Of a stretch of DNA of 44,814 nt, positions 1-24,581 are shown one piece after another. Every line of letters begins with the position of its first letter. Positions within the stretch are counted from its first letter, which is position 1. Made by a program: the position numbers and the translations under genes. The notes under the pieces were generated by a model. It saw nothing but the letters and a program-made list of their open reading frames with translations, made no database searches and was not told the origin of the DNA. Source of the DNA: Thermoplasmatota archaeon (GTDB lineage Archaea; Thermoplasmatota; Poseidoniia; Poseidoniales; Poseidoniaceae); contig JAYYDR010000038.1 in the NCBI GenBank assembly GCA_036160735.1, positions 1 through 44,814 of the forward strand, given 5' to 3'.

Positions 1-903
1 CGCTACAACGGCGATGCCGCTGAGTTTAGGCCTCTCAACCGAATTTGGAGTGAACATCTCGAACTAATCGGAGTCTGCCCTGAAGTAGGAATCGGCATGG
101 GGGTGCCACGTCCTACAATCAGGTTGGTCAAAGGTGAAGAACGGATCTCGCTCATAGATCCAAAGAACGGCCATGATTACACAGACAAAATGCTAGAATT
201 TGCTGAAGTGCAGTCAGATTTTCTAGTTGCTTCTGGTATTAGCGGCTTCGTGTTCAAGAAGGATTCTCCAAGTTGTGGTTTGGAGAGAGTCAAGGTATAT
301 CGTGGTGATAACCCACAAGCCGTGCGAGATGGCACTGGACTGTTTGCAAAGGTTTTCACCACGTTATACCCCCACATTCCAGTAATCGAGGAAGGTAGGC
401 TAACCGACCCATTACAAGCAGAACACTTCCTAGCAAGAGTTCACTTCTTCAACGAGTGGTTATCGATTGGAGAGGAAGGTTGGACCGCATCCAAACTGAT
501 GACATTCCATGCTGAGCACAAGTTGTTCCTGCTAAGTAGAGCACCTGACTCTAAGAGAATCTTGGGTAGAATCATCGCTCAAGGATTTGACAATGAAGAG
601 CACCCTGAACATGTCGCTCTAAAGTACATGACAGAAGCACAAAAGCACCTTTCAACCCTAACCAAAAGAGGAAGAATTGCTCACGCAATGGAGAGGGTTG
701 TTGGCAGGCTGCCACAGTTATCCAAGTCTGAAAAGCAGGAGATGCTAGACGTGATTCACAGTTTCAGAAAAGGGCTACTTCCAAGATCGGCTGCAATGAT
801 TTTACTAAATCATCACATCAATCAACATGATGCTGATAATCCGATTCACAAGAAGTTCATCTCTCCAATCCCAATGGAAATTGGACTAATGGCTAGAGTC
901 TGA
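1..903 (+). CDS. DUF523 (2-thiouracil desulfidase-like) / DUF1722 (YbgA-like) fusion protein, 5'-truncated by the window edge
   Basis: Frame 1 is open from base 1 (RYNGDAAEF...GVCPEVGIGMGVPRPTIRL). The CPEV-G-G-PR and KKDSPSCG motifs of DUF523 are followed by a helical DUF1722-like half (FHAEHKLFLL). Confidence 0.88.
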   Translation, partial: RYNGDAAEFRPLNRIWSEHLELIGVCPEVGIGMGVPRPTIRLVKGEERISLIDPKNGHDYTDKMLEFAEVQSDFLVASGISGFVFKKDSPSCGLERVKVYRGDNPQAVRDGTGLFAKVFTTLYPHIPVIEEGRLTDPLQAEHFLARVHFFNEWLSIGEEGWTASKLMTFHAEHKLFLLSRAPDSKRILGRIIAQGFDNEEHPEHVALKYMTEAQKHLSTLTKRGRIAHAMERVVGRLPQLSKSEKQEMLDVIHSFRKGLLPRSAAMILLNHHINQHDADNPIHKKFISPIPMEIGLMARV

Positions 904-917
904 TTCAGTTCTGTTAG

Positions 918-2014: not shown

Positions 2015-2035
2015 AATGTTACGTTTCTGTGTTAA

Positions 2036-2043
2036 TATTTATA
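2036..2043 (-). promoter_or_regulatory. Putative TATA box (TATAAATA) for a leaderless SDR-Rieske transcript
   Basis: TATAAATA on the minus strand lies 22-29 nt upstream of the SDR ATG at 2014, and there is no RBS. This is the typical archaeal leaderless geometry. Confidence 0.55.
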
Positions 2044-2137
2044 CTACTGTTCCGATGCAATTCTGCCCATTACCTTACAAACAGTGTTTCATAAATGATG
2101 ATATTCACAATGCATAACGAAAAGTGAGGTTTTCAGC

Positions 2138-2362
2138 TTGAACATTGGTGTTTTGGATAGAGTTCTACGCTTGTCAGCTGGACTTGGCGTAGTTCTTTTC
2201 GATTACATTTCTAACTCTGCATGGGAGATTGTTTTTCTCATATTTGGAGTATGGAGTGTGACCACATCGGTATTTGGCTGGTGTCCATTCTACAGGGTAC
2301 TTGGAGTCAACACATGCCCGGCTTCTTTCCAACTCAAGCATGAGGGACAGCTAGAATCTTGA
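2138..2362 (+). CDS. DUF2892 (YgaP-like) small membrane protein
   Basis: Pattern NIGVLDRVLR...two hydrophobic segments...GWCPFYRVLGVNTC. TTG start preceded by GTGAGG. Confidence 0.85.
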   Translation: MNIGVLDRVLRLSAGLGVVLFDYISNSAWEIVFLIFGVWSVTTSVFGWCPFYRVLGVNTCPASFQLKHEGQLES

Positions 2363-2364
2363 CC

Positions 2365-4266
2365 TTACATTTCTTCTTCAAGAATCTCGTCAGTCTTTGC
2401 GATAAACGAAATAGAATCTGGGTTCTCAACTGCAACAATACCGCGGATATTGTGGATATCACGTAATTCGTCAGTAGGGGGGGCGACCTTGATTCTTGAC
2501 TCGTGTATCTGGATAGAGCTTCCCGGAGATGCTTCCACACCTCCCTCAGGTAACCAAAGCCCTACAGCGCCAATTTCAGAGTGATGAGATACTAGTAGGA
2601 CTCGACCATTATCGTCTTCATCGATTCTGACAATTGTCAATTCAGAGCCATGAGGAATCAGTTTTGATGCTGGTTGCCACTCTTTCCAAGTCTCATCTAG
2701 TGGCTTTGATAACTCCACAGCCTTCTGGTCGATTTCGGATATTTGTGATTCAAAGTCCTTTGATGCTTCTTCTGCAATATCATTGACTTTGTCGATGTAT
2801 TGTCTTAGCCCTTCATACTGCATTTGTTCTTTGTTTGTCATAGCGGTATTTGCCAATAATAACATCTCAGCAAGCATGTCCATCCTATCGCTAGTTCCAG
2901 TTTCAATAGCGCATTCCATAGCCTCGTCTAGTACCTCGATTGCGAGGCCTGGACAATCGATTGCTAGTAGAGAATTTCCGATCGCTGATAGGTTTGCAAT
3001 CGCTTCGATTTTGTCTTCGATTACAATTGCATTAGCAGATATCATGTGGGCTTCAGACAACTCAGAATTACCTTCGATATGCCTAGCGATTCCTGCAAGC
3101 AATAGATGAGGAAGTCTGTTTGCTGAACCGGTCTGTGCTTGCCTGTCTGCTGTCTCGAATAGCATTGCAGCACGATTCCAATTCTTGGCAGCTAGAGCAA
3201 GCAAGCCAAGTTGGTGCATCGCTCGCATTTCGGCTCCTGTATCATCGATTAATGTGGCAAGAGATAGGGCTCTAGATAGATGAAGTTTTGAGAGTTTTAG
3301 ATTACCAGACATCTTCGATAACATACCTAAAGCAGATTCCATTCGATACAGACTTCCTGACATCGCTCTATGAGCTAACTCAGCCAATTCTTCTCCCAGT
3401 GGTGCTAGACCAAGACCAGTTACCTCGAGAATCTCACTTTGCAACTCTATTGTGGATTCATAGGCCTGCTTCAAATCTTCAGAACTTCCATCTGTTAGCA
3501 TAGAGGATAGGTGCTCGTCTAACTTGGCTACAGGAGCGCATATTTCAGGAAGTGAACCCAATTTATTCATGATTGATTTCTTAACCTTCTCGCCTCTTAT
3601 AGAGCGAATCAAGCCAGAGATTAGTTTGGCTTCATCGACCACTACAACGTCTTCACTCTCTTCTGCTAGGGCGACTTTGGAAGACAGAAGCGAATCTACC
3701 ATCCAGGTCAATTTGGCTTGGACATCATACTGTCCCGCTCTACTAATCGCATAGCGCATTTCTGCTGCTCTAACTCTTCTAGACAGACTACGCATTCGTG
3801 TTCTTTGACTAGCATTTCCAGAATCAGCCAACCTTTGCAAAAAGGTAGATGGCGGACATGTCTCAAAATTTAGATTGGCTTTTTCCCCAGTGGTAGTCAT
3901 TTTGTAATCATCAGATACAAGAGTAACTTTGTGACCTTCATGTGCTAATTTAGAACCCAAAATCATCAGGGATAAATCAACATCTTGTGGGGAGGCTTTC
4001 TCTCCAATATGTTGTGCTAATGCTCTAACTTCAGCCTCGTCTACGGCTACGGTAACCATGATCTCCCGGAATTCATCCAACAGGTTCGGTTGACCTTTCC
4101 ATCTCTGAAATCTCACATTTTTGATTTCACCATGAACTCCTGGAGTGACATAAATAGCGGAATCATCGTTTTTCAGGATGTTTTTCAAATCCTTCAAGAA
4201 GCCATTTGGTGCCATTGAACCTACGTGAATAAAGCAGTTAGAATCAACAACCCATACCTCTGCCAT
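2365..4266 (-). CDS. PIN-domain protein with a TPR-like helical region and a beta-rich C-terminal domain
   Basis: N-terminal PIN acidic motifs VVDSN, TPGVHGEI, SPQDVDL and LVSDDY. TPR-like helices such as AEMRAMHQLGLLALAAKNWNRAAMLFETA follow. Confidence 0.72.
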   Translation of the reverse strand: MAEVWVVDSNCFIHVGSMAPNGFLKDLKNILKNDDSAIYVTPGVHGEIKNVRFQRWKGQPNLLDEFREIMVTVAVDEAEVRALAQHIGEKASPQDVDLSLMILGSKLAHEGHKVTLVSDDYKMTTTGEKANLNFETCPPSTFLQRLADSGNASQRTRMRSLSRRVRAAEMRYAISRAGQYDVQAKLTWMVDSLLSSKVALAEESEDVVVVDEAKLISGLIRSIRGEKVKKSIMNKLGSLPEICAPVAKLDEHLSSMLTDGSSEDLKQAYESTIELQSEILEVTGLGLAPLGEELAELAHRAMSGSLYRMESALGMLSKMSGNLKLSKLHLSRALSLATLIDDTGAEMRAMHQLGLLALAAKNWNRAAMLFETADRQAQTGSANRLPHLLLAGIARHIEGNSELSEAHMISANAIVIEDKIEAIANLSAIGNSLLAIDCPGLAIEVLDEAMECAIETGTSDRMDMLAEMLLLANTAMTNKEQMQYEGLRQYIDKVNDIAEEASKDFESQISEIDQKAVELSKPLDETWKEWQPASKLIPHGSELTIVRIDEDDNGRVLLVSHHSEIGAVGLWLPEGGVEASPGSSIQIHESRIKVAPPTDELRDIHNIRGIVAVENPDSISFIAKTDEILEEEM

Positions 4267-4316
4267 GACTTGGCTTTGTAAAGGACGTAATTTGACTTAA
4301 CGCCTCTATTGGAAGG

Positions 4317-4610
4317 TCACTCCTGAACATCTGATTCATTGAGGTATTTCCTATCGAACCAAATCGGACCACCAGGTGGAATCGCAGAAACCATACCTAG
4401 AATCGCAAGATTAGAACTCATTCTACCCTTGTGTTGCTCCCACCATACTAAAGCGCAATACAGCACGAATAGGAATCCGTGAATTGGGCCAATGATTTTC
4501 ACTAGAATCTCATTGCCGCCGATATACTTCAACGGCATTGCGATGAAGAATAGCGAAATTGTCGAAATAGTCTCTAAAATTCCGGATACTTTGAACAGAC
4601 TCAAACTCAA
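4317..4610 (-). CDS. DUF3817-like small membrane protein
   Basis: Motifs ETIS..LFFIAMPLKY, GPIHGFLFVLY and SAIPPGG. The likely TTG start is 4610 (TTGA overlap with the ATPase stop) or 4604 behind GGTGGAGG, not 4649. Confidence 0.8.
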   Translation of the reverse strand: MSLSLFKVSGILETISTISLFFIAMPLKYIGGNEILVKIIGPIHGFLFVLYCALVWWEQHKGRMSSNLAILGMVSAIPPGGPIWFDRKYLNESDVQE

Positions 4611-5581
4611 GCCTCCACCATTGGCCTCGACGAGCCACATGATGGACATAATTGTTCGTCACTGTCTTTGTAATCGTGCTTACAAGCCGGGCAAGTAGAT
4701 GATAAGACCATCTTACCCATCGTCTCAACAGATTCCCCTTGCAGAGAGATATATCCGCTGTTGATATTTCCGACAGTGTATCTTCCTGCTCCACCAAGTC
4801 TTACCAACAAATCTGGTGGTAGGGTTACAGTTCCAGTTTCATCGATGATGAGCTCTCTATCCTTAGTCAAATTCTCAACGTCGATAGATTCTCCATGCTC
4901 TGCAACGAATCGCCCGTCCCTGAGTTCAAGCGAACGATTAGCAAACGCAGCTACTTCCTTGGAGTGAGTGACGATTAGGAATGATACTCCATCATTTTCA
5001 TGTAATTCCTTGAACAATGCAAGAACTTCTCTGCTTGTCACGGGGTCCAGAGCACCAGTTGGCTCATCTGCAAGAATCAGACGAGGCTGTGTGATTAACG
5101 CTCTTGCAATTGCTACTCGTTGCTGTTCACCACCGCTTAACATTGCAGGCAGTGCGCCTTTTCGATGACCCATGCCTAATTTTGTTAGCATTTCATCTGC
5201 GTACTTCAAAGCCTTCCTCGATGAAACACCTTGGTGCCTTAGAGGTTGAGCAACATTGTCTCTTGCATTCAGATCCGGTAATAGGTTGCCTTCCTGAAAG
5301 ATGAAAGATACAGTCTTCTGCCTAAGTTGAACGAGTTCTTGCCCAGTGAGTCGCGTCATGTTCTTCCCAGCCAAACTTACCGAACCAGCGCTTGGTTTCA
5401 TCAGCCCACCAAGGCACTTCATCAGAGTGGATTTTCCCGAACCTGACGGTCCAACGACCGCAATCGCTTCTCCAGCTTTCATATCGATGTGGAGGCCGCG
5501 CAATGCAACTACGTTACCATCCTCTGCTTTTGAGTCGTATACATGGTAAAGACCGTCAGCATGTAATATTGTCTCACTCAT
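4607..5581 (-). CDS. ABC transporter ATP-binding protein (LolD/MacB-type) with a C-terminal AbrB-like segment and zinc ribbon
   Basis: Walker [34 protein letters not shown] and H-loop VTH. The tail reads [15 protein letters not shown]...CPAC...CPSCG. Confidence 0.92.
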
Positions 5582-5583
5582 CT

Positions 5584-8500
5584 TTACTCCCCCTTCAATA
5601 CACTTGCCAGATCGGACTTTAGCGCCTTTCTAGTTGTTACCAGTAGCGCTATCACGACTGCAGCGAATACCGCAAGTGAAACAAGCACAATTTGAGTCCA
5701 AGGATACACGAGCGTACGTTCAATTACAGTACTTGACCCACCGAATATTTGGAATATGAACCCGAAGATGTCGAAGAATCCGTTGAAGGACAGGGCGAGT
5801 GCAATACCTAGTACAACTCCAAGAGCCATTGATACAACTACAATCGACAAAATCTCGAATAGAACAAGTCTGATAATTTGGTTAGGTGACGCTCCAATCG
5901 CTTGAAGTACCGCTAATTCCTTTTGTCTTTGATTTAGTACCAAAGACAAGAATACGAAGCTGGATGCTACTGCGGCCACGCTTGCAACTACGAATTGCAG
6001 AGATAGTAGTCCCGGAGTTCCAAAAATCAAACCTCCGTTCCTCTCGACTTCCTTATGCTTGCTGGACCAATCCATGGTTTCTGAGACTCTTGAATCAGCC
6101 TCAAGTTGGGAAGCTAGTGACTCTAAATCATCGCCTTCAACACCATCTACTCGAACAATCCAAGTTGTTGAGTTATAGTTGTCTGCTTTGCTATTTCCAA
6201 CGAGTGACCTCCACTTTCCTTCACCTATGATTAATGTTGATTCAACAACTGATGAATCAATTCCTGGGAAATACTCGTGAACACCCATGTAGTACATTTC
6301 TGTGCTGTATTTAATAATCTCCAATGTGAAATTGGCATTTAATACAGATACAATTGGTGCTGCCAGCGGAGGCACTTCCGATAGATTTGAAGGGACGCCC
6401 TCATCACAAGATGTGTCGTCACTGTTCGTTCCATCCGGACATGTTGTGTTTGATAGAATTGCGGTAGACAAATCTATTAATCCATACAAACCATTCAAAT
6501 TAGCATCAGTAAGATTTGCATTTTCTATTGTCCCTGATTGGAAGTTTACAATAATTGCATTTTCTAAGTTAGCACCGGTTAGGTCTGCTCCTGACATATC
6601 TGTATCAAACATAATTGATTCACTTAAATTGACGTTGGACATATCTGCTCCTGAAAGATTCGTAAGTGAAAGATCAACTCTACCTAGGTTCCTCTCATTC
6701 AAATCCTGTCCAGCCAAATCAAGACCTGACCAATCGCCCTGCATCAGACTAATGTAGGCGAAAAACAACAGGTTGGTATCAGTGTCTTGAGGTTCTCCAG
6801 AACTATTGGTGAAAACTAAATCCTCCCACACTAGAGTCACGTCTCTTGATTTGTCATCCGACCTGTCTAGTAACTCATCATCAAGACGATTTTCATCCCC
6901 TCCTCTTTCCGAACCTGGCAGATCAAGTGAATATGCTGCATCTCTACCAGCTGAGAAGCCACCGTTTTGATAGGCATCTAATGCCTTGGAAATATCATCA
7001 CCTGGAAGTGCTTGTTCGCTCCATTTCAAAACACCGTCACTTCTTTCCAGCAGCACGTATGTTTGTAGGTTTTCTCCGCCCGTAACATCGCTCAGAGCAA
7101 GTTGTGGGACACTTGTTGCTAACGGAGTGACATCTGAGTCAGCATATTGTTTGATGATGTCTATAAGTTCAGATTCGTTTACGTTTGTCTCCATCTGAAT
7201 TTGTAAATCTGAGCCTACCGTTGCGTCTACAGTCTTTTCATCGACAATTGTGCCAGTGTATCCTTGAACTGCTGCGAGAGTCACAATAGAAAGTGTGAGT
7301 AACATAATCACTGCAAGTCTGTTAACTGATTCAGCAGAACCAGATCCTTTGAGACCTCTTTTTACATCTTTAAGAAGCGGGGTCCTGCCGAATATTACTT
7401 GCATAATTTGTGGGCCTTTGGCTCCGATTCTTCCAAGAAGTAATGCCCCACCAATCCAAAGAGCAAATGGTCCGAATATTCCGATTAATCCCTCTATGAA
7501 AAAGTTCGAGACGATTCCATCTTCACTTCCATTCATCTCTAGCCATGTGTCTACTACTGCTAGCATACCAAAGAGGAATGCTGTCCAGTGTAGCCAACGT
7601 TTTGGTTCTGATTTCTTTGTGGTTTTCTTTACTCCCTCTTCAATTTCTAATTCAATGAAGTCTCTTGCTCTACTGCGACCAAATAGAACCGCTAGACCCA
7701 AGGTTGCTACCGCTGTGAATAATGTTGAACCAATTCCTAAAGTAGGGTTTACATCGAAGTCTCCGGTTCTAAACTCCATAAATCCAACTGCCGACAGGAC
7801 GATTGGAACTGCCAATAGGGCTAGTATGTACCCAATAAGCCAAGCTGCTGAAGCCATGACAAATAACTCGAGTAATACCATCCCCTGGAGAGTCTTTCCA
7901 TCTGCGCCTATTACCCTGTGAATACTCACTTCTCTACGCCGCTGTTCAAGCGATAATACCAAACCGTAGATTAAAACTGCAATCGAAAGAATAACGATTG
8001 GTATCATGATAATGTAATCAAAAATTTGGATGAGTCCAAGGAAGATATTGAGGAAAGTGATTGTACCACTAACAATGTCGGTGTAGTATAACTCAATACC
8101 TTCTTCAGTGTAATTTTGGGCTTGAACTCTAGTCCCAAGGTCTTCTAGCCATTCCTCAGCATCATCTGTCGAAGTGGTAGGCAACTGGCCTCTATCGATT
8201 GTTACTCCGAGGTACATGTGGTCATAAGACATCAAGGTTCCACGTTGTGATTCATCAAGCAATTTCCATGTTGTAAATATTGGATTAAATGGCAATGTTG
8301 GATTTCCAAAATCCCAAGGTTCGTAAATCCCCACCACTGTGAGTTCCTCGACGGTCATCCACATTCTACAGTAAATCATTTCGTTGTTTTCAGGAGTAAT
8401 TTCACCGTCACAATTCTCATCTGTTATTGAGCCTTCGAATAAGGTTGACTCATCGACAACATATGCAAATGTGAGACTATCTAATTTGTCCCCTACCTTA

Positions 8501-9216
8501 GCTTGCGCTTGGCTAGCAATTGTTGATGGCAAAATTACTCCTCTATCGCGCGTCATGTTTTCTGAACTTGGCCATTCACCAAGTCCTGATATTATGTTAC
8601 CACCTAATCGTTTTGCTAACTCCCCATCAAAGGCACCCGGACCCAAGAAACGTATGGCTCTCATGTCAGAAATCGGTGGGCCGTTAGCGTCAGCTTCTGG
8701 ATAAGTGAACGTCACGTTTGCCCAATATGGGTTTGAACTTGCAGATATTTCACGCATTTCGAGAGGTTGTGCAATTATGAATTCCGTATTGAAGAAACCC
8801 CCGCTGTGTATACCCTGACGCCCGAGTACAAGGGTACAATCATTGAACTCGGAGAATTCGTCTAGTAATTCATCACAAACCTGTTCCATCACTGTTGTAT
8901 TATTCGACCAACCTGATGCATTTTCTACCGGTGTTCGGGCATATTCAATTTTCGCATCAAAAGGTTCTGACTTCAATGATTCCTCGAAGAACAACTGAGA
9001 CAAACCAACGCCATATGCAAGAACTGTTGTAATAACCAAGGAAGATAGGAATACACCAGTGATAACCGCAAGACCTCTTTCTTTACCTCTCCAAGCACCT
9101 TGTGCTGCAAGGCGTAATCTGCTCGGCAATTCCATTACTGTATTCTGTAATTTTGCTAATCTTGACCGGTTGATGTCAAAATCGGCGTCTTCTAGATCAA
9201 TGTCTACGCCGGTCAT
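5584..9216 (-). CDS. Large FtsX-like ABC permease (two fused halves) with a pentapeptide-repeat insertion
   Basis: Two FtsX signatures (EQRRREVSIHRVIGA; QRQKELAVLQAIGAS), two large extracytoplasmic domains and multiple TM segments. It lies between two LolD-type ATPase genes. Confidence 0.88.
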   Translation of the reverse strand: MTGVDIDLEDADFDINRSRLAKLQNTVMELPSRLRLAAQGAWRGKERGLAVITGVFLSSLVITTVLAYGVGLSQLFFEESLKSEPFDAKIEYARTPVENASGWSNNTTVMEQVCDELLDEFSEFNDCTLVLGRQGIHSGGFFNTEFIIAQPLEMREISASSNPYWANVTFTYPEADANGPPISDMRAIRFLGPGAFDGELAKRLGGNIISGLGEWPSSENMTRDRGVILPSTIASQAQAKVGDKLDSLTFAYVVDESTLFEGSITDENCDGEITPENNEMIYCRMWMTVEELTVVGIYEPWDFGNPTLPFNPIFTTWKLLDESQRGTLMSYDHMYLGVTIDRGQLPTTSTDDAEEWLEDLGTRVQAQNYTEEGIELYYTDIVSGTITFLNIFLGLIQIFDYIIMIPIVILSIAVLIYGLVLSLEQRRREVSIHRVIGADGKTLQGMVLLELFVMASAAWLIGYILALLAVPIVLSAVGFMEFRTGDFDVNPTLGIGSTLFTAVATLGLAVLFGRSRARDFIELEIEEGVKKTTKKSEPKRWLHWTAFLFGMLAVVDTWLEMNGSEDGIVSNFFIEGLIGIFGPFALWIGGALLLGRIGAKGPQIMQVIFGRTPLLKDVKRGLKGSGSAESVNRLAVIMLLTLSIVTLAAVQGYTGTIVDEKTVDATVGSDLQIQMETNVNESELIDIIKQYADSDVTPLATSVPQLALSDVTGGENLQTYVLLERSDGVLKWSEQALPGDDISKALDAYQNGGFSAGRDAAYSLDLPGSERGGDENRLDDELLDRSDDKSRDVTLVWEDLVFTNSSGEPQDTDTNLLFFAYISLMQGDWSGLDLAGQDLNERNLGRVDLSLTNLSGADMSNVNLSESIMFDTDMSGADLTGANLENAIIVNFQSGTIENANLTDANLNGLYGLIDLSTAILSNTTCPDGTNSDDTSCDEGVPSNLSEVPPLAAPIVSVLNANFTLEIIKYSTEMYYMGVHEYFPGIDSSVVESTLIIGEGKWRSLVGNSKADNYNSTTWIVRVDGVEGDDLESLASQLEADSRVSETMDWSSKHKEVERNGGLIFGTPGLLSLQFVVASVAAVASSFVFLSLVLNQRQKELAVLQAIGASPNQIIRLVLFEILSIVVVSMALGVVLGIALALSFNGFFDIFGFIFQIFGGSSTVIERTLVYPWTQIVLVSLAVFAAVVIALLVTTRKALKSDLASVLKGE
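6406..6738 (-). repeat. Pentapeptide-repeat (A[D/N]Lxx) coding segment inside the permease
   Basis: Reads GDWSGLDLAGQDLNERNLGRVDLSLTNLSGADMSNVNLSES...GADLTGANLENA...ENANLTDANL and ends in a CPDGTNSDDTSC cap. Confidence 0.85.
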
Positions 9217-9944
9217 TCTTCTTCACCTTCCTCGTCAAGGCCCCATGCTGACCGTATGTCTGAAGCTTCGGTTTTACCATCCTTCAACAGCAGCATTCTG
9301 TCCGCATTGGATGCCAAGTCAGGGTCGTGAGTAACCATTAGAATAGAAATTGGCTTCTCCTCGTCATGACACAATTCTTTGAACAAAGCGAGTACTTCTT
9401 TGCCACTTGCAATATCCAAATTTCCAGTTGGCTCATCAGCCAAGAGAATCGGACGGTTTCCAGCAATTGCCCTAGCGATTGCTACTCTTTGCTGCTGCCC
9501 ACCAGATAGCTGGTCAGGAATGTGATGCATTCTGTCACCGAGACCGACCCTTTCAAGTGAGTTAATCGCAGCTTTTTCTGCGTCGTTAGAAGACATCCCT
9601 GACAGTTCTAAAGCCATTGCAACATTATCTACTGCGCTGAGGTTATCGAGTAAGTGGAAGTCTTGGAAGATCCAGCCGACCAATTCTCTTCTAACGTCAA
9701 CCACACTTGAAGGCCCTTTCAATCCGTAAGTTCGCTCATTGAGAGTGATACTACCACCATCAGCAGCTAACAGACCACCAATGATATTCAATAATGTGGA
9801 TTTACCGCACCCCGATGGTCCCATCAAAGCGACCATCTCTCCCCTTTCAATCTCCATTTCTATCCCTTTCAGGACTTGGAGTTTGTTCGATCCAGAACCA
9901 AATGATTTCGTAAGACCGGTTATAGTTAGCATGATACCACTCAC
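9213..9944 (-). CDS. ABC transporter ATP-binding protein (LolD-type)
   Basis: [32 protein letters not shown] and MVTHD. Its stop overlaps the permease start (ATGA). Confidence 0.93.
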   Translation of the reverse strand: MSGIMLTITGLTKSFGSGSNKLQVLKGIEMEIERGEMVALMGPSGCGKSTLLNIIGGLLAADGGSITLNERTYGLKGPSSVVDVRRELVGWIFQDFHLLDNLSAVDNVAMALELSGMSSNDAEKAAINSLERVGLGDRMHHIPDQLSGGQQQRVAIARAIAGNRPILLADEPTGNLDIASGKEVLALFKELCHDEEKPISILMVTHDPDLASNADRMLLLKDGKTEASDIRSAWGLDEEGEEE

Positions 9945-19136: not shown

Positions 19137-19736
19137 TCAGAAAGTAGATTCCCACTCTTCAAGGTCTTGAGCCTCGGCCCATGCCTCATCGGTTGTCTCG
19201 CCGCGTGCCTTTAGGACTTCACGGGCAAGAATCCAGTATAGAAGAGCAAGTGATTTGCGACCCTTGTTATTTGCTGGAAGAGCAAGGTCAACATTGCGCA
19301 GGTTATTGTTAGCATCACAGATTCCGACGATTGGTAGTCCGGAGTTTACAGCCTCACGTAGAGCTTGCTGGTCTGCAGCTGGGTCGGTAACGAATAGCAT
19401 GTCTGGCTCGACGTAAGAGCGCAGAGCAGGATTGGTCAGGCTACCTGGAATGAATCTTCCAACAGCAGCATTAGCGCCGATTGCTTCAGCGAACAGTCTT
19501 GCTGGGCGCTGTCCGTATTGTCTTGCGCTAACAACCATAACATTTGCAGGATTGTAACGGTTTAGGAATTGAGAAATTGCACGGATTCTGTTGTCTGTAA
19601 TTTCTACGTCGATTAGGTATAGTCCGTCTGAACGAACTTCTTGAATGAATTGTGCCATATCTGCACTCTTTTGTTGAGTACCGATGTGTACGGCGTTTGT
19701 CTCGTATGTCTCACGGTCGACTAACAGTTCTGTCAT
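19137..19736 (-). CDS. rps2: 30S ribosomal protein S2 (uS2), archaeal type
   Basis: VHIGTQQKSADM, RSDGLYLID, GRFIPGSLTNP and PANNKGRKSLALLYWILAREVL. Confidence 0.97.
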   Translation of the reverse strand: MTELLVDRETYETNAVHIGTQQKSADMAQFIQEVRSDGLYLIDVEITDNRIRAISQFLNRYNPANVMVVSARQYGQRPARLFAEAIGANAAVGRFIPGSLTNPALRSYVEPDMLFVTDPAADQQALREAVNSGLPIVGICDANNNLRNVDLALPANNKGRKSLALLYWILAREVLKARGETTDEAWAEAQDLEEWESTF

Positions 19737-19880
19737 GGTAATGACTCCAGCATTCGGCCCACTAACCCCCCCTAAATAACCGCTTCGTAAGAGAATGAGC
19801 CCTCATAATGGCCCAGTATCACGGTTCTAGGTATCACACTCGCAGGGGTAAGGTTGATTGCGACGCCACATACTCGCGAA

Positions 19881-21077
19881 ATGTCGGAGGTGGTTTTTTT
19901 GTCAGATGTACAATCCAGTAACCTTGTTGTCGCAGAGGAAAGCGACGACGGTTTTTGGAGGGACGATTCTGGTAAAGCACTCCATGTATCAGCAAGTGAT
20001 TTGGAACGGCATGCCTATTGTCCACTATCATGGTCTCTGGCTAGAGAAGGAAAAGGTGGTAGGGGCAAGGCTATCGATGCAGGTAGACAAAAGCACGCTG
20101 AAATCCACAAAAGGGTGGAAAACTTCAAGCAAAAGCAGACGGAACTTCGTAAAGCATTGATTATTTGGTCATGGTGGTTTACAATCGTTGTAATCTTCAT
20201 ATCCGATGCTATCATTTTCACTACGATTACTGATGATAGAGCCCCAATTGACATTGCTAGATATCTTTCCATTCTTTCAGTGGTTTGGCTCATTGCAGGT
20301 CTATTAGCAATCTACCTTCCATGGAGGAGGTGGATAGACCTCCCTATAGAGAAATCAGAAGAATTAGACGAACTGAAAAATCTCGACGAGTCTGCAATAC
20401 CTCGAACATTCCAACCCCATGGCTTCATTGGAGGATGGCGCCAAGGTGGTAGGGTAGAAGCTGGACTTTTGATGGGAGCTACTATTTTTGGATTACACGC
20501 GATTGGCCTATATGGTGCAGAAGACAAGGAACAAGCAGGCTTCATCTTGGTTACAGTCGCAATGATTTGGACACTGCTAGCATCTTGGCAACTCCAGAGA
20601 GCGTTACTTGCCGACAACGCACTAGAGGTAGCCAGAATCAATGCAGGAATAGAAGAAAATACTGACGTTGCATATTCCGATGATGAAGCAACTGCTGGAC
20701 TATTATCCGACGAAAAAACCGGTTTAAGAGGAAGACCTGACCAAATTGTCATCGTCGATGGAGAATTCATTCCTGTTGAACAAAAAACTGGTAAAATACC
20801 TGAAAAACCACACAAGTCACACAAGATACAGTTACTAGCATATTTACACCTAGTGGAATCTACTACTGGGAGAAATCCCCCTTATGGCGTCATAAAATAC
20901 GGCAATGAAAACCTACACCAAATCGATTGGGATGACCACAACAAGCACCTGCTGTTTTCTGCAGCTAAAGAAGTCCAGCGATTGATGGTACAAGGTGGTG
21001 CAGAAAGAAATCACAATCGGAAAGGCAAGTGTGAAAGTTGCTCAAGACGCTATGCGTGCGACTCTAGTTTAGTCTAG
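19881..21077 (+). CDS. Solo Cas4-like (RecB-type PD-(D/E)xK, Fe-S) nuclease with an internal four-TM insertion
   Basis: SASDLERHAYCP, G...H, LRGRPD, PVEQKTG, QLLAY and KCESCSRRYAC. Four hydrophobic segments lie at about 20154-20595. No cas1/cas2 or array in the window. Confidence 0.82.
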   Translation: MSEVVFLSDVQSSNLVVAEESDDGFWRDDSGKALHVSASDLERHAYCPLSWSLAREGKGGRGKAIDAGRQKHAEIHKRVENFKQKQTELRKALIIWSWWFTIVVIFISDAIIFTTITDDRAPIDIARYLSILSVVWLIAGLLAIYLPWRRWIDLPIEKSEELDELKNLDESAIPRTFQPHGFIGGWRQGGRVEAGLLMGATIFGLHAIGLYGAEDKEQAGFILVTVAMIWTLLASWQLQRALLADNALEVARINAGIEENTDVAYSDDEATAGLLSDEKTGLRGRPDQIVIVDGEFIPVEQKTGKIPEKPHKSHKIQLLAYLHLVESTTGRNPPYGVIKYGNENLHQIDWDDHNKHLLFSAAKEVQRLMVQGGAERNHNRKGKCESCSRRYACDSSLV

Positions 21078-21637
21078 TCGTAAGCACATCCAACTTCGTT
21101 TGGATACTCCCAACACTTTCTCTCGATCTTTATCAGAACTTGAAATGAATCCTTGTAGAGGTTTGCAAATTCCTCTCCATATCCTCTAGCATCTACACTA
21201 AGGGTCCAAGACCCTTCTGCAAGTGGCTGAGAGAAAGTTGCTACCATCTTTCTCTCGGTTTCTGTTACTTCTTCAAACCAAACTTGATTACCCTCTGAAT
21301 CGGTTAGAGATGCTCTAACGTACCTTACATCGGTTGGTGTGCTAGGTAAAATCAACTCAAGTGGCATTGCCGCAGAAATATATGCACTGATTTCGACTAC
21401 ATCGGAGTCTACCTCGAACTTTTGCACACTCGAGTATGAAGTGCTTCCTGCAACATCAGCTACATCTGTGGTAAAAACATGGGAGGCATTGATTTTCTGA
21501 ACTACCTCAATCATCTCTGGCGCTGGGCGTAAATCTTCCATGAATTCACGTGCAGGAACAAGTCCAATGCAACCCATTGTTGAGGTCATCAATATGGCCA
21601 ACATCACAAATGCAGACATTGCATGCTTTGGCCTCAT
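21074..21637 (-). CDS. Hypothetical secreted lipoprotein
   Basis: Signal with lipobox-like Cys (MRPKHAMSAFVMLAILMTSTMGC) and a beta-rich body. Start at ATG 21637. Its stop overlaps the convergent Cas4-like stop. Confidence 0.68.
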   Translation of the reverse strand: MRPKHAMSAFVMLAILMTSTMGCIGLVPAREFMEDLRPAPEMIEVVQKINASHVFTTDVADVAGSTSYSSVQKFEVDSDVVEISAYISAAMPLELILPSTPTDVRYVRASLTDSEGNQVWFEEVTETERKMVATFSQPLAEGSWTLSVDARGYGEEFANLYKDSFQVLIKIERKCWEYPNEVGCAYD

Positions 21638-21714
21638 CAACAAACCCGAGACGCTACCAATGTATGAATGGAACCCCTCGATGGGTTGAAACCAAATCAT
21701 AGACTCGGATACAT

Positions 21715-21818: not shown

Positions 21819-24581
21819 TCACTCGAATTTAGCTCCACAAACAGAACACTCGCTTGCATCTACCGGGATATCCGCACCGCATGAACCGCACTCGGCTGTT
21901 TCTGACTTCTTTTGCCGCCTTCTAACTCCGCGTCTACGCTTGGCCTCAGCAGCGGCAGCTTTCACTGGATCTAGTTCATCAGCCTCATCATCAAACGAGA
22001 AATCCATCGCATCATCAGGCAGTACATTGCCTGCAAGCGAACGGTCTTGTATTCCCATACCAACCAGAACTTCATCTCCAGGCATAACGCCTTCTTCACC
22101 TGTAATTTCATACAACTTACCACGAATATCTGCATCACTGGCTGATAACTCTCCGCCATCGTCTACGTGAGCCTTTATGTCCTTATTTTCTAGAATGGCA
22201 TCGATATCATGACCTTCGAAGGTTTCCTCAATCGACTTCAATGTTGTTGTAACAGTTGATAGCGCTTCTTCTTCATCCATCTCAACCTCTTCTTCAGCCA
22301 TCCTTCTGTCGTAAGCTGCTTCAACTTCAGCCTCTGCCTTGGCAATGTTTTCATCCCAATGCTCCTCTAAATCATCGGAATCATATCCAAATTCTTTGAC
22401 TGCTTCGTCAAATCCTTCGTAACCTGCAGCGTGGATTGTTTCAGGATCAATCTCTTCTTCTTCTTGAAGTGGCACTTCCTCTTTCTCGATGACTCTTCTC
22501 TGTCTTTGCTCGAAATATTTGGAAACGTCTTGGTCGGCACCACAATATGGACAGTTAGCAAGTAAGTCTGGTATTGATTCACCACAACTCTCGCAATCGT
22601 GGAATTGTTTTCTAGCCTTCTTGAGATTGAAAGTACACCAAGGACACCTATCTTCTCCACCCGTCAATTCTCCATCACAGGCCGGACAGTAATCGAAAAT
22701 ATCCCTTTCAACTTCTTCTTCTACTTCACGGGTTAGGATAACTGCTGCAATCAAAACTGCGATTAGGATCAAACAGATTACTGCAATCATTCCTGCGGTT
22801 TGGAATGTCATATTTCCTGCCTCATCAGCGACATTGCTGCTCGATTCTTTGGAATCCCAATTCCAAGTTTGAGTTGAACTAACCGCAGTCTCATTCGGAA
22901 CTAGGTTGATGTTGGTATATGGTGCAGATGCTGTGAATGTACATTCAACAGTAACGATTTGGCCGCCGGTTGAAACAGTGACATCGATTTCTTCGAAAAC
23001 TTCACCTAACTCATTTTCGCAAGAATATGTAACAGCACCTGTTTCCTGGGATGCGAGTTTGATTGAAACTGTATATTCATCGCCAGACATCAATGGGAAT
23101 GTCGCTGGTTCCTGATTGGAATCGACCAGCTCCATTGAAGTTCGAGACCATGTAAGGCGAAGTTGAGCATTCACCTCAACACTGCCGTTTGCATATGAGT
23201 TGAGCGGATTCAAATCATAGGAACTCGAAAGAGGCACCCACTGTGCCTCGAAAAAAGCAGTGTGTGAACCGCTTTCTGTAGCTAAGGTGTTCTGCCAAAG
23301 GTAAGAGTCCCCTGCTTGAATTGTGATAATTGGCTGAGATGATTCTGCCACCGTTTGACCTTCCCATGTGTAAATCAATTTGCCCCTGACCTCAACATCA
23401 CCGGTGTTAGTAATCGATACACTCCAGTCAACATTGTTGCCGCTGTTGACGGTGTTTTTTGATGGTACAGCATATGGGTCAACCGCAACATCAGGAACGT
23501 CATACTTGTCGAAATAGGCGCTTATTCGGTCGTTTGAGGTACTCTCCTGAATGAAATTGCCTGTACCGTAAGGATCGATTGCCGCAGTTACCTGATGGTT
23601 ACCGGCTGACAGAGTTGAGATCTGATTGTATAGCAGTTCATACGTCCAAGCTTGCTGAGTGCTTTCTCCACCTGTGATATTGACATAGAATGTGGGTAAA
23701 GGAATGTCAACTGCATTATCATCTTTGATTTCGATGCGCATAGGTACCTCTGTAGTGCCACTGCCGTCAGTTCTAACAATCGTCCCAGAAATTGTCCAAG
23801 GACCTTGCAAGTCACCGTCCCCAACTGTAATGGATAGGTCGCCGAAGTGAGTGATGTCCATTCTCGTATCAACTGTAACAGAAGAAAAGAATGTATTGTC
23901 TTCATCGGCTTCCACAACCGCATCATCTAAATCGAGAGTTACAGCGATGTCGTGGGTTCCAGAGGAAGGTGCAATCATTGAGTGATTAACCCATTCTGAT
24001 TCACCTGCTGGGATTGCTGGAACGTTGACAATTTCACTTTGGGTGTCTAGATCAATCTGCATTCTGCTAGCATCTGCATCTTCAGAACCTGTGTTTTCTA
24101 CAAGAGTTGAAACTAACAAAGCATCTCCGGATTTAACGATTGATGGACTGGTTGTGATTGTTGATGTTTCTAAATCAGGCAAACCCGCTACTACAATCTC
24201 AGAATAGAAAAATTCCATTCCACCATTATTGTATTCAAATTCAATCCAAACTTTGTGTTCTCCCACGGTTAGTCCAGACTTTACAACCTCAACATCTACT
24301 GTTCCCTCGGCAGGGATGTCTACCGTATTGGCGGAGATTAGATTACTTGGATAATCTTTCCAATAAAATCCGTAGAATACGTCTTCGGCTACGAAGTTGT
24401 TTGAATTGTACAAAGTGAGTCTGATGGTTACTGAACCACCCTCAACAGGATTTGAAGGAGAAATTGCGACGGTCGATGTGGAGGCTTGAACGCCACCACT
24501 ATCTTCTGCATTTACCGATAGTGGCATTGTTGATACAAGCATCATCGCGAGGACGACTGCGGAAACAAAGCCCCTTGCCAT
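21819..24581 (-). CDS. Large single-pass membrane protein: signal peptide, CARDB/Ig-like repeats, TM, cytoplasmic zinc ribbons and acidic region
   Basis: N-terminal signal, then CARDB-like PDLET..VENTGSEDA and DLDDAVVEADEDN. TM GMIAVICLILIAVLIAAVIL. Zinc-ribbon motifs CPAC/CPWC/CESC/CPYC and a terminal CGSC/CSVC. Confidence 0.8.
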   Translation of the reverse strand: MARGFVSAVVLAMMLVSTMPLSVNAEDSGGVQASTSTVAISPSNPVEGGSVTIRLTLYNSNNFVAEDVFYGFYWKDYPSNLISANTVDIPAEGTVDVEVVKSGLTVGEHKVWIEFEYNNGGMEFFYSEIVVAGLPDLETSTITTSPSIVKSGDALLVSTLVENTGSEDADASRMQIDLDTQSEIVNVPAIPAGESEWVNHSMIAPSSGTHDIAVTLDLDDAVVEADEDNTFFSSVTVDTRMDITHFGDLSITVGDGDLQGPWTISGTIVRTDGSGTTEVPMRIEIKDDNAVDIPLPTFYVNITGGESTQQAWTYELLYNQISTLSAGNHQVTAAIDPYGTGNFIQESTSNDRISAYFDKYDVPDVAVDPYAVPSKNTVNSGNNVDWSVSITNTGDVEVRGKLIYTWEGQTVAESSQPIITIQAGDSYLWQNTLATESGSHTAFFEAQWVPLSSSYDLNPLNSYANGSVEVNAQLRLTWSRTSMELVDSNQEPATFPLMSGDEYTVSIKLASQETGAVTYSCENELGEVFEEIDVTVSTGGQIVTVECTFTASAPYTNINLVPNETAVSSTQTWNWDSKESSSNVADEAGNMTFQTAGMIAVICLILIAVLIAAVILTREVEEEVERDIFDYCPACDGELTGGEDRCPWCTFNLKKARKQFHDCESCGESIPDLLANCPYCGADQDVSKYFEQRQRRVIEKEEVPLQEEEEIDPETIHAAGYEGFDEAVKEFGYDSDDLEEHWDENIAKAEAEVEAAYDRRMAEEEVEMDEEEALSTVTTTLKSIEETFEGHDIDAILENKDIKAHVDDGGELSASDADIRGKLYEITGEEGVMPGDEVLVGMGIQDRSLAGNVLPDDAMDFSFDDEADELDPVKAAAAEAKRRRGVRRRQKKSETAECGSCGADIPVDASECSVCGAKFE

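What the first reader, a model, noticed from the sequence alone, without database searches (positions are those of the whole stretch)
19881..21077. Membrane-embedded solo Cas4-like nuclease
Seen: a full set of Cas4/RecB-type motifs (YCP; G-x3-H; GRPD; EQK; QLLAY; CxxC-x5-C) interrupted by about 145 residues holding four hydrophobic segments. There is no array, cas1 or cas2 in 44.8 kb. Established: in Cas4/AddB proteins one N-terminal and three C-terminal Cys bind a single Fe-S cluster. Inference: both halves must lie on the same membrane face, consistent with an even TM count, giving an Fe-S nuclease tethered to the membrane. Possible roles are processing incoming DNA (uptake, nutrition, anti-viral) or membrane-localised repair. 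Its position beside rps2 suggests a housekeeping role rather than a defence island.
Basis: partly seen in the sequence, partly recalled or inferred. Interest (0 to 1): 0.78.

Follow-up and report, generated by a model that had tools for sequence, protein, structure and literature searches.

The report
Membrane-anchored Cas4-type nuclease, not CRISPR
A conserved gene of ocean archaea encodes a Cas4-type iron-sulfur DNA-cutting enzyme with four membrane-spanning helices spliced into its middle, which should hold it on the inner face of the cell membrane; it has no link to CRISPR, and its job is untested.

Summary
A block of about 148 residues with four hydrophobic helices splits the domain.

An AlphaFold2 model (pLDDT 86) superposes its two halves on one Cas4 domain (VIA Z 20.1, rmsd 2.5 Å, 183 residues).

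Among 65 complete relatives clustered at 50% identity, 63 carry 2, 4 or 8 helices in the insert. Profile comparison shows these are 1, 2 or 4 copies of one roughly 60-aa hairpin. Lys+Arg bias places the nuclease in the cytoplasm.

The family matched in 284 of 401 sampled Thermoplasmatota genomes and in 58 of 58 of the window's own family, where Cas1 was found in 0 of 58. None of 114 flanking proteins at 29 loci outside Poseidoniales matched a Cas family. There were no phage matches, and plasmid matches covered only the ordinary Cas4 core. The rps2 adjacency is Poseidoniales-specific synteny.

Seven full-text searches found no description of this design. This scan has already reported the same family on other genomes.

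The cellular role is untested. I favour trimming of DNA ends at the membrane, most likely of incoming DNA. Verdict: new variant of a known kind.

The parts
19881..21077 (+). Whole gene, 398 codons plus stop. An upstream in-frame TTG at 19854 would add 9 residues.
   Evidence: homologues at 76-97% identity
19881..20153 (+). Residues 1-91, the N-terminal piece of the Cas4 domain. It holds the first cluster ligand C47 (20019-20021) and the G68-x3-H72 helix (H72 at 20094-20096).
   Evidence: Y46 and C47 are invariant; G68 and H72 are at least 90% conserved. The segment aligns to the N-terminus of type I-C Cas4. pLDDT is 93-98 over residues 21-80.
20154..20225 (+). Residues 92-115, membrane helix 1, continuous with the H72 helix. 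D109 is at least 95% conserved in Poseidoniales.
   Evidence: KD 2.04; helix 63-115
20244..20318 (+). Residues 122-146, membrane helix 2, which ends hairpin copy 1.
   Evidence: KD 2.25; helix 122-145
20319..20447 (+). Residues 147-189, a Lys/Arg- and acid-rich loop predicted to be cytoplasmic. Residues 161-189 are disordered in the model. This loop accounts for most of the extra length of the Poseidoniales form.
   Evidence: pLDDT below 50 at 161-163 and 165-189; lowest conservation of the regions past the N-terminal tail, 0.51
20448..20513 (+). Residues 190-211, membrane helix 3. H206 is at least 95% conserved in Poseidoniales.
   Evidence: KD 1.26; helix 190-211
20529..20597 (+). Residues 217-239, membrane helix 4, which ends hairpin copy 2 and continues as a stalk helix to residue 255.
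   Evidence: KD 1.74; helix 216-255; hairpin 1 against hairpin 2 by hhalign, probability 97.3, E 2e-11
20655..21074 (+). Residues 259-398, the PD-(D/E)XK catalytic core and the Cys triad. It holds D287 (20739-20741), E300-x-K302 (20778-20786), Q317-x3-Y321 and C384-x2-C387-x5-C393 (21030-21059).
   Evidence: Pfam PF12705 and PF01930 above their cut-offs; invariant K302, Q317, C384, C387, C393; alignment to 8d3l, 4r5q and 4ic1
19137..19736 (-). Ribosomal protein S2 gene, a divergent neighbour. It is conserved synteny within Poseidoniales only, and no functional link is shown.
   Evidence: Pfam Ribosomal_S2; found in 79 of 80 loci, and the one miss has only 214 bp upstream; 0 of 16 loci of other families
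21074..21700 (-). Convergent 208-aa Ig-like protein with a hydrophobic N-terminus. Its 3' end overlaps the gene by 4 bp. It is a conserved neighbour, and no functional link is shown.
   Evidence: sub-threshold Big_13 hit; found in 74 of 80 loci

Best explanation
The gene encodes one complete Cas4-family PD-(D/E)XK nuclease domain. Its N-terminal Cys and three C-terminal Cys should hold a [4Fe-4S] cluster. Two copies of a conserved membrane hairpin of about 60 residues (four helices) are inserted between the metal-ligand His helix (H72) and the catalytic strands (D287, E300, K302).

The helix count is even, and Lys+Arg are enriched on the nuclease side. Both halves therefore stay in the cytoplasm and fold together. 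The enzyme stands on two helices that run straight out of membrane helices 1 and 4. From helix geometry, the active site lies roughly 3 nm from the inner membrane face.

The gene is vertically inherited, single-copy and CRISPR-independent, and it is found across the phylum Thermoplasmatota.

The following mechanism is inferred, not shown. Like other Cas4, AddB, Dna2 and Exo5 enzymes, it threads and trims free DNA ends, here only those that arise next to the membrane. My preferred source of such ends, at about 35%, is linear DNA entering the cell (virus genomes or imported DNA). The enzyme would then act as a fixed, RecBCD-like gate.

Shown computationally: the motifs, the fold, the helices, their parity and repeat origin, the phyletic spread and the gene context. 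Inferred: cluster binding, catalytic activity, topology, substrate and role.
For: - Motifs and families.
- Fold of the window protein: AF2 pLDDT 86.3, pTM 0.80. VIA Z 20.1, rmsd 2.5 Å, 183 residues aligned to the Cas4 domain of 7mi4_A (chain 5..200), spanning model residues 30..398. Type I-C Cas4 8d3l_I gives Z 19.4.
- Fold of an 8-helix relative: Z 19.6 to 7mi4_A spanning model residues 16..596.
- Helix parity: of 65 complete representatives, 19 have 2 helices, 31 have 4 and 13 have 8; one has 1 and one has 7.
- Topology: Lys+Arg are 890 of 3990 residues on the nuclease side and 122 of 1376 on the other side.
- Repeat origin: hairpin 1 against hairpin 2 gives probability 97.3, E 2e-11 (reversed control E 6e-3). 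The 8-helix halves against each other give 98.9, E 1.5e-17 (control 0.017). The 2-helix hairpin against the 4-helix hairpins gives 85-94.
- Constraint on the insert: in 76 Poseidoniales sequences the membrane helices score 0.61-0.78 and the nuclease halves 0.71-0.76.
- Spread: 284 of 401 phylum genomes, f1 58 of 58. Own genome: one PF01930 match.
- No CRISPR link: Cas1 in 97 of 401 genomes and in 0 of 58 of f1. No Cas1, Cas2 or array in the own genome. No Cas family among 78 flanking proteins of 20 loci or 36 of 9 loci.
- Not on mobile elements in the collections searched: no match in phages; in plasmids only the Cas4 core of ordinary Cas4/Cas1 genes.
- RNA: contigs from seawater RNA libraries of two studies cover parts of the gene.
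Against: - No experiment exists on any member that I could find, so activity, cluster binding and topology are predictions.
- The TIGR00372 cas4 equivalog cut-off is not reached (59.1 bits against 65).
- Helix 3 is only weakly hydrophobic (KD 1.26), and no dedicated topology predictor was available.
- I could not read model coordinates, so the Cys-Cys distances and the orientation of the active site are unmeasured.
- Nothing in the gene context points to incoming DNA. The neighbours are translation, sugar-nucleotide and tRNA-modification genes.
- The one type-IV-pilus-like operon context (L125) was not seen in 0 of 10 related loci.
- The gene was not found in many streamlined or small genomes (f2 11 of 36, f5 3 of 48), so it is dispensable.
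- The RNA-library contigs may be DNA carry-over. Two of them bridge the divergent S2 intergenic region.
- M. mazei solo-Cas4 prefers supercoiled dsDNA (abstract of PMC12501428), so end-threading is not the only possible mode.
Confidence: 0.75

Rival explanations
1. The enzyme is the same, but its substrate is endogenous. It would be a housekeeping nuclease that repairs or clears chromosomal DNA ends or flaps near the membrane, for example DNA caught at the division site or membrane-attached replication or segregation intermediates.
For: - Inheritance is vertical and single-copy, and synteny with core genes is stable.
- Neighbours are housekeeping genes everywhere examined.
- Hudaiberdiev et al. 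2017 (passages read) suggest solo-Cas4 could perform uncharacterised defence or repair functions, and find it evolves like ordinary cellular genes.
- A TPD (PF14811) gene lies directly upstream on the same strand in 12 genomes. An earlier scan note calls TPD a CDIN1-like nuclease; that label comes from no call of mine.
Against: - No repair, replication or division gene is a recurrent neighbour. Gyrase appears at 1 of 20 loci.
- TPD is not co-distributed with the gene: f5 48 of 48 against 3 of 48, f15 0 of 53 against 50 of 53.
- The gene is dispensable in many lineages.
- A nuclease fixed at the membrane reaches little of the chromosome.
Confidence: 0.3
2. It is the nuclease part of an unrecognised archaeal DNA-uptake route for nutrition or transformation. 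It would degrade or process one strand as DNA crosses the membrane, in the way ComEC combines a channel with a nuclease in bacteria (the analogy is recalled, not tested).
For: - The hairpin unit is conserved, repeated (1, 2 or 4 copies) and as constrained as the nuclease, with conserved small-xxx-small spacing, a Trp at 78% and a polar mid-helix position. This is more than a passive anchor needs.
- One locus (L125) sits between a T2SSE-type ATPase and a prepilin-peptidase gene.
Against: - The L125 context recurs in 0 of 10 related loci.
- The outer loops are only 5-11 residues, so there is no ectodomain.
- The helix number varies between 2, 4 and 8, and no known channel family matches above its cut-off.
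- No oligomer evidence exists.
Confidence: 0.12
3. It serves CRISPR adaptation in trans, as ordinary Cas4 does together with Cas1-Cas2.
For: - The best structural and sequence matches are CRISPR Cas4.
- Some genomes of the phylum carry both this gene and Cas1.
Against: - Cas1 is found in 0 of 58 genomes of the family, where the gene is in 58 of 58. The own genome has no Cas1, Cas2 or array.
- Where both exist on one contig they lie at least 82 kb apart (G055, G131, G305).
Confidence: 0.02
4. The hydrophobic block is not membrane-spanning. It would be a buried helical bundle of a soluble protein, or the nuclease would be catalytically dead and act only as a DNA-binding tether.
For: - Helix 3 falls below the usual hydropathy threshold.
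- No experimental localisation exists.
Against: - Three segments score KD 1.74-2.25 over 19 residues.
- Lys+Arg density differs 2.5-fold between the two sides, and 63 of 65 relatives have an even count.
- All catalytic residues (H72, D287, E300, K302, Q317, Y321) are at least 90% conserved.
Confidence: 0.04

Closest known systems
CRISPR-associated Cas4 (PF01930 / TIGR00372; structures 7mi4 Cas4-Cas1 fusion, 8d3l type I-C, 4ic1 SSO0001, 4r5q Pcal_0546)
   Same: - Same fold: Z 20.1, 19.4, 12.6 and 9.9.
- Same catalytic motifs and the same arrangement of one N-terminal plus three C-terminal Cys.
- Pfam PF01930 is passed.
   Different: - An insert of 148 residues with four membrane helices lies between the His helix and the catalytic Asp.
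- No cas1, cas2 or array.
- The TIGR00372 equivalog cut-off is missed.
- Inheritance is vertical across a phylum rather than modular transfer with adaptation genes.
Archaeal solo-Cas4 (Hudaiberdiev et al. 2017, PMC5704561; M. mazei Solo-Cas4, Rentz et al. 2025, PMC12501428)
   Same: - It lies outside CRISPR-cas loci.
- Branches follow taxonomy, and it occurs in genomes without CRISPR (passages read). Here f1 has the gene in 58 of 58 genomes and Cas1 in 0 of 58.
- The M. mazei enzyme binds a [4Fe-4S] cluster and cuts DNA with Mn2+ or Mg2+ (abstract).
   Different: - The described solo-Cas4 proteins are soluble.
- The main text of PMC5704561 contains 'transmembrane' 0 times. Its supplementary trees and tables were not read and may list members without noting the helices.
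Fe-S 'staple' nuclease domains of AddB/AdnA, Dna2 and Exo5
   Same: - Same domain type, with the cluster bridging the N- and C-terminal segments.
- VIA Z 14.2 (7sjr_A), 12.2 (5ean_A) and 13.4 (7lw8_A).
   Different: - Those domains are parts of soluble helicase-nuclease machines or are mitochondrial or nuclear enzymes.
- None has membrane helices in the loop enclosed by the staple.
ComEC-type competence proteins (functional analogue only; recalled, not tested)
   Same: They combine a polytopic membrane part with a DNA nuclease at the cytoplasmic membrane.
   Different: - The folds are unrelated (a metallo-beta-lactamase nuclease and a competence channel domain).
- No sequence or structural match was seen here.
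- Membership is not claimed.

Membership tests
Cas4 family (PF01930 / COG1468) | PD-(D/E)XK/RecB catalytic motifs: His helix, D, ExK, QxxxY | tested here: met
   H72, D287, E300 and Y321 are at least 90% conserved, and K302 and Q317 are invariant, in 73 sequences. They align residue by residue to 8d3l, 4r5q and 4ic1.
Cas4 family (PF01930 / COG1468) | Four cluster Cys: one N-terminal plus C-terminal CxxCx5C | tested here: met
   C47, C384, C387 and C393 are the only Cys in the protein and are invariant in the alignment. Cluster binding itself was not tested.
Cas4 family (PF01930 / COG1468) | Curated profile thresholds | tested here: met
   PF01930 scores 36.6 bits against a cut-off of 22.7, and PF12705 scores 46.1 against 22.
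CRISPR-associated Cas4 equivalog (TIGR00372) | Score above the equivalog cut-off | tested here: not met
   59.1 bits against a cut-off of 65.
CRISPR-associated Cas4 equivalog (TIGR00372) | Location in an adaptation module with cas1/cas2 and an array | tested here: not met
   No Cas family among 34 window ORFs. No Cas1, Cas2 or array in the genome. Cas1 in 0 of 58 genomes of the family. No Cas family among 114 flanking proteins of 29 other loci.
Cas4 family (PF01930 / COG1468) | Cas4 three-dimensional fold formed by both sequence halves | tested here: met
   VIA Z 20.1, rmsd 2.5 Å, 183 residues, model range 30..398 against 7mi4_A 5..200. An 8-helix relative gives Z 19.6. Both are predicted models.
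Cas4 family (PF01930 / COG1468) | [4Fe-4S] binding and metal-dependent DNA nuclease activity | not testable with these tools
   This needs purified protein.
Solo-Cas4 (sense of Hudaiberdiev et al. 2017) | Cas4-family gene outside CRISPR-cas and mobile-element contexts, mainly vertically inherited | tested here: met
   
Polytopic membrane protein | Hydrophobic helices of membrane-spanning length with a positive-inside charge bias | tested here: met
   KD 2.04, 2.25, 1.26 and 1.74. Model helices run 22 to 53 residues long. Lys+Arg density is 0.223 against 0.089. DeepTMHMM and experimental localisation were not available.
Known membrane-domain families (Pfam) for the insert | Match above a curated cut-off | tested here: inconclusive
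   Only sub-threshold hits were found, for example DUF2721 at 18-22 bits against a cut-off of 28.3. No Atlas hit reached 0.9.

The most novel reading that the evidence does not exclude
The hairpin-repeat Cas4 is the fixed 'entry-gate' nuclease of a whole archaeal phylum. It would be a CRISPR-independent, RecBCD-like barrier or processor that degrades or trims linear DNA (virus genomes, imported DNA) at the moment its ends emerge on the cytoplasmic face of the membrane. The conserved hairpin bundle, with its polar intramembrane D109/H206 positions, would dock it to the still unknown entry or uptake site. This would give a handle on how Thermoplasmatota, including the CRISPR-poor Marine Group II, deal with incoming DNA.
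Probability: 0.2. Interest if true: 0.8.

Novelty: new variant of a known kind. Interest (0 to 1): 0.62.

Why it matters
Cas4-family nucleases are known as soluble parts of CRISPR adaptation, as soluble solo enzymes, or as domains of repair machines. Here the same Fe-S domain is built around a membrane hairpin module that has been duplicated to 2, 4 or 8 helices. It is kept in most sampled lineages of a major archaeal phylum, including the very abundant ocean Poseidoniales, where I found no Cas1.

The design shows how a domain stapled by a metal cluster can tolerate a large membrane insert. It also points to an unstudied DNA transaction at the archaeal membrane. Finally, it is a caution for annotation: many of these genes are named 'CRISPR-associated Cas4' in databases in genomes without CRISPR.

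Tried and rejected
1. Type-IV-pilus or DNA-uptake link. At L125 the gene lies between a T2SSE ATPase and a prepilin peptidase. None of the L125 neighbours recurs in 10 other loci of that family (0 of 10). Rejected as a one-off.

2. TPD (PF14811) as an obligatory partner. It lies directly upstream in 12 genomes, but its phyletic pattern is discordant. It is not a required partner.

3. Shared surface-protein neighbours. The giant 1,734-aa protein and the 133-aa protein upstream of the 2-helix form at L161 show no BLASTP similarity to the window's 920-aa CARDB protein (E 1.9) or its 208-aa Ig-like protein (E 0.27).

4. Homodimer prediction (two copies, with alignment A1). The verdict was 'no answer', score 0.00 against a mark of 0.42. 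This is not evidence either way.

5. Known membrane family for the insert. Pfam gave only sub-threshold hits, the Atlas gave no hit at 0.9 or above, and PADLOC and PHROGs matched only the Cas4 core.

6. Single-sequence search against solved structures. Nothing significant was found; the best Cas4 hit had E 0.84. The profile search was needed.

7. Expression. RNA-library contigs cover only parts of the gene, and uncovered parts say nothing. DNA carry-over is not excluded.

8. Literature. Searches found no description, with six phrasings of 'membrane/TM Cas4', returned 0 papers.

9. Motif rule on the 2-helix loci. The rule I used to pick the target ORF failed at 3 of the 12 loci fetched (L156, L160, L165). 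Their neighbours were not scanned.

10. Earlier scan claims. Split two-gene forms and bacterial members, claimed by an earlier scan note, were not tested here.
Full report
**Observation**

The window has an ORF at 19854..21077 (+). These are the only four Cys in the protein.

- Pfam places residues 266-394 in PDDEXK_1 (46.1 bits, cut-off 22) and 284-393 in Cas_Cas4 (36.6 bits, cut-off 22.7).
- NCBIfam TIGR00372 (cas4 equivalog) scores 59.1 bits, below its cut-off of 65.
- Between residues 92 and 239 lie four hydrophobic segments. Kyte-Doolittle 19-residue maxima are 2.04, 2.25 and 1.74, with a weaker 1.26 for the third segment.

**The organism and the window**

The other 33 ORFs scanned include archaeal S2, Dus, eIF-1A, RIO kinase, a wyosine enzyme and a complex-I operon. 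None matches a Cas family.

- There are no tRNA or Rfam matches and no CRISPR-like tandem array.
- Close homologues are named by their sources as Candidatus Poseidoniaceae proteins, 'Dna2/Cas4 domain-containing' or 'CRISPR-associated exonuclease Cas4'.
- The genome holding the window (1.74 Mb, 80.6% complete) has one PF01930 match, which is this gene.
- That genome has no Cas1, no Cas2 and no 23-mer repeated three or more times at CRISPR spacing.
- It does hold other PDDEXK_1 proteins elsewhere.

**Fold**

An AlphaFold2 model built on 73 aligned relatives has mean pLDDT 86.3 and pTM 0.80. It has helices at 63-115, 122-145, 190-211 and 216-255, a disordered loop at 161-189 and a β-rich C-terminal core.

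- Foldseek returns only Cas4, Dna2, AdnAB, MGME1 and Exo5 type nucleases at E ≤ 0.001.
- VIA-align gives Z 20.1 (rmsd 2.5 Å, 183 residues) to the Cas4 domain of the Cas4-Cas1 fusion 7mi4_A (chain residues 5..200), with the aligned model range 30..398. Type I-C Cas4 8d3l_I gives Z 19.4.
- The N-terminal 60 residues and the C-terminal 140 residues therefore assemble into one canonical Cas4 domain in the model. This implies, but does not measure, that the four Cys meet as in Cas4. I had no access to the coordinates.
- A profile of the family finds 8d3l (E 1.7e-9), 4r5q (1.2e-8) and 4ic1 (1e-6) and aligns the catalytic and Cys motifs.

**A family with 2, 4 or 8 inserted helices**

An exhaustive search of 1.84 billion cluster representatives gave 853 hits at E ≤ 0.001, of which 67 were at E ≤ 1e-30. 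I kept the 65 listed representatives that carry the N-terminal Cys motif, GxPD and CxxCx5C, and counted hydrophobic segments in the insert (threshold 1.2).

| Helices in the insert | Representatives |
|---|---|
| 1 | 1 |
| 2 | 19 |
| 4 | 31 |
| 7 | 1 |
| 8 | 13 |

So 63 of 65 have an even count and none has 6. At the stricter threshold of 1.6 more odd counts appear (6 with one helix, 3 with three), because weak helices such as helix 3 here are missed.

Lys+Arg make up 890 of 3990 residues (0.223) in the loops and flanks on the nuclease side, against 122 of 1376 (0.089) on the opposite side. By the positive-inside rule the nuclease is cytoplasmic.

An 8-helix member (P0141, 596 aa) was modelled at pLDDT 77.5. 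It shows eight long helices, and its two ends again match Cas4 (Z 19.6, model range 16..596).

**The insert is a repeated unit**

Profile-profile comparison gave these results:

| Comparison | Probability | E-value | Reversed-sequence control E |
|---|---|---|---|
| Hairpin 1 vs hairpin 2, 4-helix forms | 97.3 | 2e-11 | 6e-3 |
| First four vs last four helices, 8-helix forms | 98.9 | 1.5e-17 | 0.017 |
| 4-helix insert vs each half of the 8-helix insert | 98.7 and 99.2 | 4.7e-16 and 3.7e-19 | 0.0064 and 0.047 |
| 2-helix hairpin vs the 4-helix hairpins | 85 and 94 | 6e-6 and 1.8e-7 | 2e-3 and 0.09 |

- Pooling 135 hairpins shows a recurring pattern. The first helix has small residues spaced four apart and a partly conserved polar position (Asn in 31%). 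The second helix has a Trp in 78% of hairpins.
- In 76 Poseidoniales sequences the four helices are as conserved (0.61-0.78) as the nuclease halves (0.71-0.76). Polar intramembrane residues D109 and H206 are at least 95% conserved.
- The insert is therefore a constrained module, duplicated 1 to 2 to 4 times, and not a random hydrophobic spacer.
- It matches no Pfam family above its cut-off, and the Atlas gives no hit at 0.9 or above.

**Distribution and context**

The best 80 loci are all labelled Poseidoniales or broader archaeal names, except one 'Yoonia sp.' MAG contig. That contig carries the full archaeal synteny and is probably mis-binned.

- In these 80 loci, S2 lies divergently upstream in 79. 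The one miss has only 214 bp upstream. The small Ig-like gene lies convergently downstream in 74.
- In 401 sampled genomes of the phylum, 284 match the family profile at E ≤ 1e-10 (177 of 261 high-quality genomes). Family f1 has 58 of 58, f2 has 11 of 36 and f5 has 3 of 48.
- Among the 30 best loci of that survey, S2 is adjacent in all 14 from f1 and in 0 of 16 from other families. The rps2 adjacency is therefore lineage synteny.
- Cas1 occurs in 97 of the 401 genomes, in 0 of 58 of f1 and in 1 of 36 of f2. Where both genes sit on one closed contig they are at least 82 kb apart (G055, G131, G305).
- The 78 flanking proteins at 20 loci with 4 or 8 helices include GlmS/GlmU, TPD, L15e (3 of 5 eight-helix loci), IF-2B, gyrase and metabolic enzymes. 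None matches a Cas family.
- The 36 flanking proteins at 9 loci with 2 helices have tRNA-modification enzymes, Sir2, a HEPN-nucleotidyltransferase protein or no family at all. Again none matches a Cas family.
- tblastn finds nothing in 50,697 phage records. In plasmids it finds only the C-terminal core of ordinary Cas4/Cas1 genes, in 5 records covering 24-36% of the query.

**Leads on function that failed**

- A pilus-type operon around the gene at L125 is not repeated in 10 related loci.
- TPD sits directly upstream on the same strand in 12 genomes of five families, but its phyletic pattern is discordant with the gene.
- Giant neighbours of the 2-helix form are not similar to the window's surface proteins.
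- A homodimer prediction gave no verdict.
- Contigs from seawater RNA libraries of two studies cover parts of the gene, one pair with 0-1 mismatches. This is compatible with transcription but does not exclude DNA carry-over.

**Mechanism**

Shown computationally: an intact Cas4 active site and Cys set, a Cas4 fold made from both halves, an even number of repeated membrane hairpins, a cytoplasmic charge bias, and phylum-wide vertical inheritance without CRISPR.

Inferred: a [4Fe-4S] nuclease held about 3 nm from the inner membrane face. The distance follows from H72 lying about 20 helical residues from the membrane boundary at 1.5 Å per residue. The enzyme would act on DNA ends that appear at the membrane.

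My estimates for the role are as follows:

- About 35%: incoming linear DNA. This divides between an innate barrier and an uptake processor.
- About 30%: endogenous repair or clearance.
- The remainder is open.

**Comparison with what is known**

It is a member of the Cas4 family in the Pfam sense and of 'solo-Cas4' in the sense of Hudaiberdiev et al. 2017. It is not a CRISPR-associated Cas4: the equivalog cut-off and the genomic context were both tested and not met.

- The main text of PMC5704561 never uses 'transmembrane' (passages read; supplements not read).
- PMC13621843 describes a different Cas4-like clade, DUF2779 fused to a DEDD nuclease (passages).
- PMC12501428 characterises a soluble M. 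mazei solo-Cas4 (abstract).
- PMC4158269 and bioRxiv 10.1101/270033 mention only ordinary Cas4 (passages).
- Seven full-text searches found no description of a membrane-embedded Cas4. Subscription-only literature was not searched.

**Earlier findings of this scan**

The same family was reported before on other genomes, with the same reading and the same statement that no description was found. This report confirms that reading independently on this window.

- the parity count;
- the charge-bias topology;
- the quantified hairpin-repeat origin;
- the Cas1 and TPD phyletic comparisons;
- the 8-helix model;
- the rejection of three context leads.

**Verdict**

The feature is real and is a new variant of a known kind. 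The cellular role is unknown. Interest is moderate to high.

Noticed in passing
L087 (record labelled MAG: Yoonia sp.), 1-6871: A contig binned with a bacterial genome carries the complete Poseidoniales gene order (3-hydroxyacyl-CoA dehydrogenase, HxlR, two HTH genes, Dus, archaeal S2, the membrane Cas4) at 47-81% protein identity to the window. It is probably a mis-binned archaeal contig rather than a bacterial member of the family.
   Followed up: partly
L088:4713-6232: In this Poseidoniales locus the match to the gene comes in two pieces (4713-5642 and 6038-6232), about 395 bases apart. This could be a much longer loop, an insertion or a broken gene.
   Followed up: no
window 21819-24581 (-): This is a 920-aa protein with a signal-like N-terminus, a CARDB domain, one membrane helix and a cytoplasmic tail carrying a double zinc ribbon, long acidic stretches and a terminal Cys-rich ribbon. 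It is conserved next to the gene in 71 of 80 Poseidoniales loci. It looks like a surface-to-cytoplasm receptor-like protein of unknown role.
   Followed up: partly
G389, G347, G184, G305, G121, G168, G164, G263, G362, G314, G230, G383 (e.g. L132:7029-7811): A TPD-family (PF14811) gene lies directly upstream of the membrane Cas4 on the same strand, overlapping it by 4 bases in L132, in 12 genomes of five families. The two genes are nevertheless not co-distributed in the phylum.
   Followed up: yes
L159:6879-12523, L161:26-5667, L162:99-5155, L163:6892-12578: In one family (f3) the 2-helix form follows, on the same strand, a giant protein of 1,539-1,747 aa and a protein of 133-149 aa. Neither has any Pfam match.
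   Followed up: partly
L133:4540-5094, L134:4618-5205, L137:4384-5142: Ribosomal protein L15e lies directly upstream, on the same strand, of the 8-helix form at 3 of 5 such loci.
   Followed up: no
window 19393-20087: Two RNA-library contigs (X2 record 11, X5 record 22) run across the 144-bp intergenic region between the divergent S2 gene and this gene. This means either DNA carry-over in the libraries or overlapping divergent transcripts.
   Followed up: no
window 4607-9944 (-): A 1,209-aa FtsX-type permease with pentapeptide repeats in its large loop is flanked by two ABC ATPase genes.
   Followed up: no
G000:C25:6105-6902, C66:7718-10394, C17:6628-7704: The same genome encodes other PDDEXK_1 nucleases in open frames of 462, 590, 538 and 1,264 aa. 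They may be the soluble end-processing enzymes of this organism.
   Followed up: no
L164:1982-3514: A HEPN plus nucleotidyltransferase fusion protein lies divergently next to a 2-helix family member. It is the only defence- or toxin-like neighbour among the 114 flanking proteins scanned.
   Followed up: no
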